Shown here piece by piece: positions 7,366 to 8,984 of a stretch of 64,000 nt of DNA. The stretch comes from Chiloscyllium plagiosum (taxonomy: Eukaryota). Positions within the stretch are counted from its first letter, which is position 1. Every line of letters starts with the position of its first letter. Under the pieces are notes generated by a model. The model was given only the letters and a program-made list of their open reading frames with translations, ran no database searches and had not been told where the DNA came from. The DNA lies in NCBI RefSeq assembly GCF_004010195.1, contig NC_057719.1:34756399-34820398 (forward strand), read 5' to 3'. The position numbers were made by a program, and so were the translations under genes.

Positions 7366-8984
7366 TTACAGGGAGGAAGTAGGGATAGGCAAACCCACCT
7401 CCTCATCTTCATTCGGATGGAGAAAAAGCATTTTCTGGGGGGAGCCAATGCTGTCAACAGAAGCTATTAGCTTAGCAATAATATATTTAACAATAGCAAT
7501 ACCAGCAAAGAGACAAACTAAAACAATACCAATATACATGGCCAGATTAATCAACCAGTTGTACCATGAACCAAAGCCCCTATCTCCCAATCCCGCGCCT
7601 TCTGTCATTTATCTGATGAAGGTGCGAATGTTATCTACATGCCTGGTAATATTCTCAATGAGGTCAGCAACCCCCACCCTGCATTTGCCTTTAACTATGG
7701 AGCAAACCCTACCCTCTTTTGCAAGTAGGTAGTCGAGAGCGTACCGGTTTTGTTGGGAAACTAAGCGTAATCCTAAAAGCACGTCCTTAACTCCTGCTAA
7801 GGCCGAGGACGTCTCATTGCCCAAGAGGCTGAGACCGCAAATGAGATCATTTCGGTTTTGATGGCTAATAGTTCCTGCAGATCCTCCTAAGGAAAAAAGT
7901 ACTAAGAAATGCATACCCCACAGACTGAGCTTTAGTGGTGCCAAAAGCCTTAGCATCCCTCCATTGTGTGCAGAATTCAGGTGAGACTGAACGTTTAACA
8001 GGGAAACGCCAATCCCATTCCCAGGTAATGTGACGGTGAACAGTAGTCGGGAAAAGTGTGCCTACAGCTACAGCACGGGGAGTACTTATTTCATCAAGGA
8101 CAAGGAAGTTGGTTGCTTTGTCTCGGCTGAAAACATAATAACCAGGTTTAGTATAGATGATGAAGGGATCTTCCCAATAAGAAGCAGATCTGTCTTTGTG
8201 ACTTACCCCAACATATACATAATCCATGGCTACAAAGTGTGGTTGTCCAGAGTGCTTAAGGTGAAAACTGCTCAATGAAAAGAAGTGAGTCTCTCGGTAA
8301 GAGATGTGGTTATTGTCTCACAACTGGGAAAATGGAGGTCCCATTAGGGGTCTCTTAGTGGGGATGGGTGCCATTGCTCATTCCATAAAGGGCCTGAATA
8401 CCAGCGATAACAGAGACACACTCCTCCAATAGGCATTCACATGAGATGCGAGACCCCACAGGGGAGCATTAGCGTTTGGTAAATTTGATTATAGCGCATG
8501 GAATAGTCACATTCACATAAGTGCACTCCCATCCTTTACCATTGTAACAATTTGGATAGGCTACCCTGGAATTATTAAAGGAAATTCATAAGCAACTAGC
8601 AGGTGGGGATAAGTAATAACATTTCCAACTTTTATCTTTTACGATGTGCAGATTTAGACCTATTTGAATGGGGGCAAGGCTTAACAGGACCGCCCATAGT
8701 ACAATTGAAATCAAACTGGCACACAACATGCTGACAGGGTAAGGACTATTTCGACTTGTTCTGTAACTGAACTGTCTGATCCTCTTGATGCACTTAACCA
8801 TTGCAATGGGGTATGCATCGAAGAAATCAGTCTCTTGGCACAAAAGGACATCTTTCTGGCATAAATGGTACACAGTCTCTGGTTGCTCAGGATCACATGG
8901 GTAAAGAGTTCCTCCTTGCGCACCAATGCTGGCAATGACGAGCCCATATAACAGGGTCAGTTTGATCTTCATCATAATGGTCAT
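7366..8984 (-). pseudogene. env: ERV env (signal peptide, Cys-rich SU, TM with immunosuppressive domain and membrane anchor); several stops and frameshifts
   Basis: Signal-like MMKIKLTLLYGLVIASIGA; VKR/SV cleavage at ~7990; QNRYALDYLLAKEGRVC ISD; anchor LAMYIGIVLVCLFAGIAIV; extra T in run at 7893-7898 and stop at 7609-7611. Confidence 0.92.

What the first reader, a model, noticed from the sequence alone, without database searches (positions are those of the whole stretch)
7366..7993. Shark ERV envelope whose TM subunit looks like filovirus GP2
Seen: removing one T from the run at 7893-7898 gives KR/SVSPEFC-TQWRDAKAFGTTKAQSVGYAFLSTFSLGGSAGTISHQNRNDLICGLSLLGNETSSALAGVKDVLLGLRLVSQQNRYALDYLLAKEGRVCSIVKGKCRVGVADLIENITRHVDNI. 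Known: gamma-type Env usually has an N-terminal fusion peptide, whereas filovirus GP2 and alpharetroviral TM have an internal fusion loop closed by a disulfide. Against Ebola GP2 as I recall it ([20 protein letters not shown]...LRTFSILNRKAIDFLL...GGTCHILGPDCC...DWTKNITDKIDQI) the match is gap-free over 77 aa with about 31 identities by hand count. These include LICGL and both GP2 glycosylation sequons (NET, NIT). The two loop cysteines are 44 residues apart (45 in Ebola) and SVGYAFLSTF lines up with AIGLAWIPYF. Inference: a retroviral Env lineage unusually close to filoviral GP, relevant to the origin of filovirus and reptarenavirus glycoproteins. I cannot tell whether it has been reported.
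Basis: partly seen in the sequence, partly recalled or inferred. Interest (0 to 1): 0.9.

Follow-up and report, generated by a model that had tools for sequence, protein, structure and literature searches.

The report
Broken shark retrovirus envelope, Ebola-like
This is a dead copy of a common fish retrovirus whose membrane-fusion protein resembles Ebola's; that kinship was published in 2024, but the family turns out to lack one cysteine that Ebola's protein uses to hold its two halves together.

Summary
A broken class I provirus (minus strand, 6618-21025; LTRs 0.12 apart, 4-bp target duplication) has an env whose TM core matches Ebola GP 550-626 gap-free at 32 of 77 residues; filovirus GP2 chains lead the PDB hits. 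It is one of at least 150 related copies in this genome. The kinship is published: Nino Barreat and Katzourakis 2024 (PMC11521997) place cartilaginous-fish ERV ectodomains as sister to ebola/marburg GP2 (posterior 0.83). My tree agrees (85/86), but AU tests do not reject the alternatives. The cysteine-bounded internal fusion loop holds in sister copies (first Cys 50 of 55). Its interior shows no sequence similarity to the filovirus loop, and the Ebola-specific likeness sits in about 20 residues. So SU and TM are probably not disulfide-linked, unlike filovirus, ALV or MLV envelopes. I did not find the loop-plus-CX6C anatomy described in the texts I could read. Verdict: new, defective member of a known lineage, with one modestly interesting anatomical detail.

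The parts
20357..21025 (-). 5' LTR (TG...CA)
   Evidence: BLASTN to the other LTR 584/676 identities; ends read
6618..7265 (-). 3' LTR, preceded by a purine tract at about 7266-7277
   Evidence: K2P distance between LTRs 0.117 over 650 columns
21026..21029 (.). 4-bp target-site duplication, upstream copy
   Evidence: same 4 bases flank both LTRs
6614..6617 (.). 4-bp target-site duplication, downstream copy
20337..20354 (-). Primer-binding-site-like stretch starting TGG, 2 nt after the 5' LTR; the tRNA was not identified by any tool
   Evidence: read
17610..19213 (-). Probable gag remnants (proline-rich stretch, capsid-like pieces); position only, no Pfam match
   Evidence: ORF pieces; 0 families; inference from position
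16058..16423 (-). Reverse transcriptase fragment, class I (gamma/epsilon-like)
   Evidence: PF00078 E 4e-6; MLV RT 85 bits vs foamy 45, HIV-2 29
14856..15143 (-). RNase H fragment
   Evidence: PF00075 E 0.0045
13773..14114 (-). Integrase core fragment
   Evidence: PF00665 E 4e-5
9086..9340 (-). Integrase C-terminal domain, cut off from the core by a LINE-like insertion of about 4 kb
   Evidence: PF18697 MLVIN_C E 3e-13; insertion from ORFs (its class is recalled, not tested)
8823..8984 (-). env start: signal peptide and start of a cysteine-containing N-terminal domain
   Evidence: tblastn match to P0002 residues 7-51
8364..8618 (-). SU cysteine-rich region, with two in-frame stops; much of the SU stretch before it is unmatched in this copy
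   Evidence: tblastn to P0002 229-314, E 5e-12
7991..8158 (-). SU C-terminal strands and basic cleavage site (P1 Arg at 7991-7993; P4 not basic)
7837..7972 (-). Internal fusion loop between Cys (7970-7972) and Cys (7837-7839); broken by a frame break in the run at 7893-7898
   Evidence: both Cys in 43 of 51 sister loci covered in one frame
7612..7836 (-). HR1 with N-glycan sequon, ISD, CX6C (third Cys absent), HR2 with sequon
7609..7611 (-). Premature stop between HR2 and the membrane-proximal region
7366..7608 (-). Membrane-proximal region, transmembrane helix (about 7486-7557), cytoplasmic tail, terminal stop

Best explanation
A dead provirus of a multi-copy class I ERV family of cartilaginous fish, belonging to the lineage already published as sister to ebola/marburg GP2. 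In the living virus Env worked as a class I fusion protein: cleaved at a basic site into SU and TM; TM began with a loop closed by a Cys-Cys bond, carrying the hydrophobic fusion peptide in its middle, as in filovirus GP2 and ALV TM; HR1 (with the glycan-marked stutter) and HR2 then folded into the six-helix bundle around a two-cysteine chain-reversal loop. Because the third cysteine is absent family-wide, SU was most likely held on TM non-covalently. Shown: motifs, their conservation, provirus anatomy, defects. Inferred: the disulfides, cleavage, non-covalent association, fusion mechanism, identity with the published lineage. This copy can make no Env.
For: LTR pair, target duplication, pol domains. 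Loop Cys1 50 of 55, Cys2 59 of 66, HR1 Asn 60 of 66, CX6C Cys 60 and 56 of 64, third Cys 0 of 64 among 67 distinct loci; third Cys in 0 of 12 family proteins but 7 of 7 filovirus sequences. No CxxC in SU of P0001, P0002, P0017; conserved Cys in P0002 come in even numbers per part (6, 12, 4). Tree: window inside the family (95/91), family + filoviruses 85/86, 89/79 without three long rows. A family protein is named from horn shark (P0003). Published sister relation, posterior 0.83, and 14 listed chondrichthyan loci with filovirus or CAS-virus GP as best hit. The third Cys is the SU-TM link in gamma-type Env and Ebola GP (PMC11575397).
Against: I could not compare sequences with the published alignment (files too large). 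81 columns only; AU tests reject neither alternative. No named gamma TM, reptarenavirus or Tapajos GP in my tree. P1 Arg is read in only 26 of 47 loci and P4 is basic in 1 of 29, so furin cleavage is unsure. One database protein (P0007) does have a CxxC, mid-SU. Models were too poor to show any disulfide.
Confidence: 0.8

Rival explanations
1. An ordinary fish gamma-type TM whose Ebola likeness comes from shared ancestral features (loop cysteines, HR1 glycan, ISD) concentrated in one 20-residue motif, with no special kinship to filoviruses.
For: Identities with the window: first 20 columns filoviruses 9-13 vs 3-7 for other non-family TMs, but last 57 columns filoviruses 18-20 vs 16-26 for TMs without loop Cys. 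BLASTP bits overlap. AU p 0.22 and 0.30. Loop interior scores 6.9 against the filovirus loop, below the shuffle mean of 8.6. The HR1 glycan is common in non-mammalian gamma-type Env (PMC9967133).
Against: Both of my trees and the published Bayesian tree recover the sister relation; the comparison TMs were themselves fetched by similarity to the family, which inflates their scores; the family profile ranks filovirus GP (70-82 bits) above full-length syncytin-2 (51).
Confidence: 0.15
2. The gene moved the other way: a retrovirus captured a filovirus-like GP, then lost the third cysteine.
For: Direction is unresolved in principle (Hotzel, 10.1101/2021.11.05.467493); filoviruses keep CX6CC, the family does not.
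Against: The family is sister to, not nested in, filoviruses; SU features point to retroviral SU (Avian_gp85/TLV_coat clusters at 0.91-0.92, a lead only); the family profile finds no GP1 match in full-length filovirus GPs; fish filoviruses lack this ectodomain (PMC11521997).
Confidence: 0.04
3. A host-co-opted (syncytin-like) gene or an endogenous filovirus GP.
For: One relative is auto-annotated syncytin-1-like.
Against: Lies between LTRs after gag and pol; frame break plus several stops.
Confidence: 0.01

Closest known systems
Cartilaginous-fish ERV ectodomains of Nino Barreat and Katzourakis 2024 (PMC11521997)
   Same: LTR element, env position, Ebola-like HR1-HR2 domain, filovirus GP as best known hit, sister to ebola/marburg/dianlovirus GP2 at moderate support.
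   Different: The paper's text treats only the ectodomain phylogeny; I found no mention of the fusion loop, GP1/SU or the missing third Cys in the main text or the supplements I could search. Their alignment was not readable.
Filovirus GP2 (Ebola, Marburg)
   Same: Cys-bounded loop of similar span (44 or 40 vs 45), N-x-N-x-L-I-C motif, HR1 and HR2 sequons, 32 of 77 identities without gaps.
   Different: No third Cys (no GP1-GP2 type link); loop interior unrelated, Gly-rich and without the proline seen in filovirus and ALV loops; no detectable GP1 similarity; class I retroviral gag-pol context.
Avian gamma-type Env (ALV; Henzy and Johnson 2013, PMC3758190)
   Same: Internal fusion peptide flanked by two Cys, first Cys within ten residues of the cleavage site, HR1 glycan, no CxxC in SU.
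   Different: Loop 40-44 vs 36-38; CX6C vs CX6CC; only 22-23 of 77 identities; class I rather than class II pol; non-avian host.
Anamniote gamma-type Envs of Chen et al. (bioRxiv 10.1101/2021.11.23.469661)
   Same: ERV Env in cartilaginous fish; a CXnC subtype and three novel fusion peptides are reported there.
   Different: Their text says the new TMs show no N-terminal similarity to the alpha type and does not link a CXnC clade to filoviruses; figures and supplements not seen, so this family may be among their types.

Membership tests
Class I (gamma/epsilon-like) ERV | LTR pair, target duplication, gag-pol-env order | tested here: met
   (gag by position only)
Class I (gamma/epsilon-like) ERV | RT closest to MLV among retroviral RTs | tested here: met
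   MLV 85 bits, foamy 45, HIV-2 29; no RT tree, no epsilon reference in that library
Gamma-type Env | ISD upstream of the cysteine motif | tested here: met
Gamma-type Env | CX6CC with third Cys for the SU-TM disulfide | tested here: not met
   0 of 64 loci, 0 of 12 family proteins
Gamma-type Env | CxxC isomerase motif in SU | tested here: not met
   none in P0001, P0002, P0017; one mid-SU CxxC in P0007; single invariant N-terminal Cys, 27 of 27
Avian gamma-type / filovirus-type TM | Internal fusion peptide flanked by two Cys | tested here: met
   43 of 51 loci with both positions in one frame; hydrophobic peak inside the loop in 10 of 10 proteins
Avian gamma-type / filovirus-type TM | The two flanking Cys form a disulfide | not testable with these tools
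   models give no contacts and are weak in the loop
Avian gamma-type / filovirus-type TM | N-glycan sequon at the start of HR1 | tested here: met
   Asn 60 of 66, Thr 52 of 65
Avian gamma-type / filovirus-type TM | CX6CC | tested here: not met
Filovirus GP | GP1-like receptor-binding subunit | tested here: inconclusive
   no sequence match; SU mostly under pLDDT 50 and barely tested in fold searches
Published chondrichthyan filovirus-like ERV lineage | Ebola-like HR1-HR2 domain and filovirus GP as best named hit, inside an LTR element | tested here: met
Published chondrichthyan filovirus-like ERV lineage | Sister to ebola/marburg/dianlovirus GP2 in a TM tree | tested here: inconclusive
   recovered at 85/86 and 89/79, alternatives not rejected
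Published chondrichthyan filovirus-like ERV lineage | Groups with the paper's own sequences | not testable with these tools
   no such alignment found in the readable supplements; four archives too large

The most novel reading that the evidence does not exclude
The closest retroviral relatives of filovirus GP2 define an undescribed Env type: a filovirus-length, cysteine-closed internal fusion loop and an intact ISD, but no SU-TM disulfide (CX6C, no CxxC). This would break the stated rule that the ISD always goes with CX6CC, extend the Cys-flanked loop to class I ERVs of cartilaginous fish, and imply that known shark ERVs are sisters, not the donors, of filovirus GP, whose ancestor had loop, HR1 glycan and the third Cys.
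Probability: 0.35. Interest if true: 0.6.

Novelty: new member of a known kind. Interest (0 to 1): 0.3.

Why it matters
Where filoviruses got their glycoprotein is a long-standing question; this family is the best-placed retroviral relative, but that was shown in 2024. What this check adds is anatomy: the fusion loop architecture is shared, the loop sequence is not, and the intersubunit cysteine is absent across the family. That constrains the ancestral state and offers a natural test of the idea that the ISD is conserved to regulate the SU-TM disulfide (PMC11575397). The copy itself is dead and ordinary.

Tried and rejected
AlphaFold2 of natural relative P0001: mean pLDDT 45, no Foldseek match at E<=0.001. 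AlphaFold2 of P0002 with 105 rows: mean pLDDT 54; only the TM hairpin matched (2EBO Z 7.1, rmsd 2.6, 74 aligned, tied with MPMV, ASLV and syncytin-2 at 6.6-6.7); BFVD best hit Zaire GP, E 9e-5 with rmsd 43, uninformative; SU-to-GP1 fold similarity stays open. Profile comparison of loop interiors: family vs filovirus 6.9, vs alpha 5.6 (40 shuffles: means 8.6 and 8.0), vs P0017 17.0 (shuffle max 19.5), vs P0026/P0031 16.7 (no shuffle control): none significant. The word-index protein search found only 1 relative each. Source names for ten proteins could not be looked up, so the hosts of most database relatives are unknown. The percomORF paper (PMC5939848) is not held. Earlier scan findings: none. 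Rejected: endogenous filovirus, co-opted gene, chance resemblance.

Full report
Observation. The region is the 3' half of an env gene on the minus strand. Two frames carry the TM: one holds the basic site (7991-7993), the first cysteine (7970-7972) and the start of a hydrophobic stretch; after a frame break in the run at 7893-7898 another holds the second cysteine (7837-7839), HR1 with a sequon, the ISD, a CX6C motif, HR2 with a sequon, a stop at 7609-7611, then the membrane anchor and tail. I read the pieces separately. The unbroken 93-residue core matches Zaire GP 550-626 with 32 of 77 identities and no gap. Of 56 PDB sequences at E<=1 the first 39 are filovirus GP (49 bits best); ASLV TM scores 28, CAS-virus GP2 23, MLV 21, though several of those constructs are shorter.

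Element. LTRs at 20357-21025 and 6618-7265 (584/676 identical, K2P 0.117), TG...CA ends, a 4-bp target duplication, a PBS-like stretch and a purine tract define a provirus. RT, RNase H, integrase core and the MLV-type integrase C-terminal domain are found in pieces; RT is closest to MLV (85 bits) over foamy (45) and HIV-2 (29), so class I. Everything is heavily broken, SU included.

Family. G000 gives 150 scored matches of 2052 candidates, a lower bound. From three searches I held 72 loci, dropped 5 duplicates and read columns in 67, the window's own copy included; one gave alignments. First loop Cys 50 of 55, second 59 of 66, HR1 Asn 60 of 66, HR2 Asn 52 of 58, CX6C cysteines 60 and 56 of 64. 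Both loop positions lie in one frame in 51 loci; 43 have both Cys (23 without a stop), spaced 44 (13), 40 (20) or otherwise (10). The position of the third CX6CC cysteine is Ile, Met or Thr in 61 of 64 and Cys in none; 0 of 12 database family proteins have it against 7 of 7 filovirus sequences and all 12 alpha-type sequences whose motif was read (1 not read). SU has no CxxC in P0001, P0002 or P0017, one mid-SU in P0007; an N-terminal Cys is invariant (27 of 27); conserved Cys in P0002 number 6, 12 and 4 in the three extracellular parts, so all could pair within a subunit. Cleavage is less clear: P1 Arg in 26 of 47, basic P4 in 1 of 29.

How close to filoviruses. A search of 1.84 billion representatives with a natural sister TM gave 45 hits: the family first, then Mengla-like and Marburg-like GPs interleaved with other ERV Envs (those two labels are my recognition, not source names). 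In BLASTP the window core scores 55-62 bits on 6 filovirus GPs, 48-61 on 11 TMs without loop cysteines (my label; hosts unknown; fetched by similarity, so biased upward) and 29-39 on 3 ALV Envs. The filovirus edge lies in the first 20 columns (9-13 identities vs 3-7); in the other 57 filoviruses have 18-20 and the unlooped TMs 16-26. The loop interior has no profile similarity to the filovirus loop (6.9; 40 shuffles 8.6 +/- 2.0) and lacks the proline of filovirus and ALV loops; family queries align to GP2 only from the N-x-N-x-L-I-C motif onward and not to GP1. A tree of 42 rows and 81 columns puts the window in the family (95/91, with long-branch P0014 inside) and family + filoviruses at 85/86; without three long rows 89/79, and 96/91 with P0017 added; AU tests reject neither filovirus + alpha (0.30) nor family + unlooped TMs (0.22). 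No named gamma TM, reptarenavirus or Tapajos GP was in the tree. Structure models were uninformative beyond the TM hairpin; the Atlas links a relative's SU to Avian_gp85/TLV_coat clusters at 0.91-0.92, a lead.

Mechanism. Most likely a class I fusogen working like filovirus GP2 and ALV TM: cleavage, a disulfide-closed internal loop that inserts into the target membrane, then an HR1/HR2 six-helix bundle (established for those proteins: PMC3758190, PMC9967133). Since the third cysteine is what links the subunits in gamma-type Env and Ebola GP (PMC11575397), its absence implies non-covalent SU-TM association. Motifs are shown; bonds and mechanism are inferred. It works like a filovirus/alpha-type TM but fails strict membership of the covalent gamma type. 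This copy is dead.

What is known. Nino Barreat and Katzourakis 2024 (PMC11521997; seen: passages, all of section 11, the supplementary PDF, one part each of files 6, 10 and 13) report ectodomains in retroelements of four cartilaginous-fish genera as sister to ebola-, cueva-, marburg- and dianlovirus ectodomains (posterior 0.83) and list 14 chondrichthyan loci. 'Fusion' occurs twice and 'GP1' never in its main text, and 'fusion loop' in none of the supplements searched (2 of 13 files not searched there); four archives were too large and one PDF had no text, and these may hold the alignments. Chen et al. (10.1101/2021.11.23.469661; passages, sections 7 and 12; figures not held, supplements closed) already report CXnC variants and three novel fusion peptides among anamniote Envs, cartilaginous fish included. 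Henzy and Johnson 2013 (passages) said the Cys-flanked peptide had not been seen outside birds; PMC11575397 (passages) calls ISD and CX6CC invariably linked. Blanco-Melo et al. (PMC11089739; passages; author name recalled) filtered such ERV cross-hits as routine. Also seen as passages: PMC8278194, and the two Hotzel preprints (name recalled). Six literature searches turned up no text describing loop plus CX6C in this lineage; most subscription papers are not in that library.

Verdict. Observation confirmed; interpretation partly supported; headline already published. New, defective member of a known lineage; interest 0.3. The boldest reading left open, an undescribed Env type with filovirus-like loop but no intersubunit disulfide as the sister of filovirus GP2, has probability about 0.35 and would merit 0.6.

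Noticed in passing
window 5700-6613 and 21030-21800, minus strand: The provirus sits inside an older Gypsy-like pol: protease-side frames upstream and RT frames (5951-6331) downstream continue across the target duplication. Class name from recall.
   Followed up: partly
window about 9380-13500: A LINE-like insertion (ORFs 9731-10408, 10374-11405, 11769-12941, minus strand) splits the integrase; a related copy lies at about 21750-23250. Class not tested.
   Followed up: no
window 15727-15932 and 16469-16674: 206-nt inverted duplication, 95% complementary, inside pol.
   Followed up: no
window 8823-8984; P0002 1-165; P0045: This Env subfamily has an extra N-terminal domain with six conserved Cys ahead of the usual SU start; P0001 and P0007 lack it; an unrelated TM type (P0045) seems by eye to have a similar one.
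   Followed up: partly
P0017, P0026, P0031, P0035, P0014: Other database Envs also lack the third Cys, and P0017, P0026, P0031 have a Cys-bounded loop (38 or 49 residues); P0017 joins family + filoviruses at 96/91. Hosts unknown.
   Followed up: partly
G000 loci L043-L072 vs L002-L042: Two subfamilies: loop span mostly 40 in the first set, 44 in the second.
   Followed up: partly
P0002 residues 252-317: The only confidently modelled SU part is a long, cysteine-rich beta-hairpin domain (pLDDT 80-94) that no fold search tested on its own.
   Followed up: no
window 9083-9150, minus strand: A short tandem expansion encoding (E-M/V/I) repeats follows the integrase C-terminal domain.
   Followed up: no
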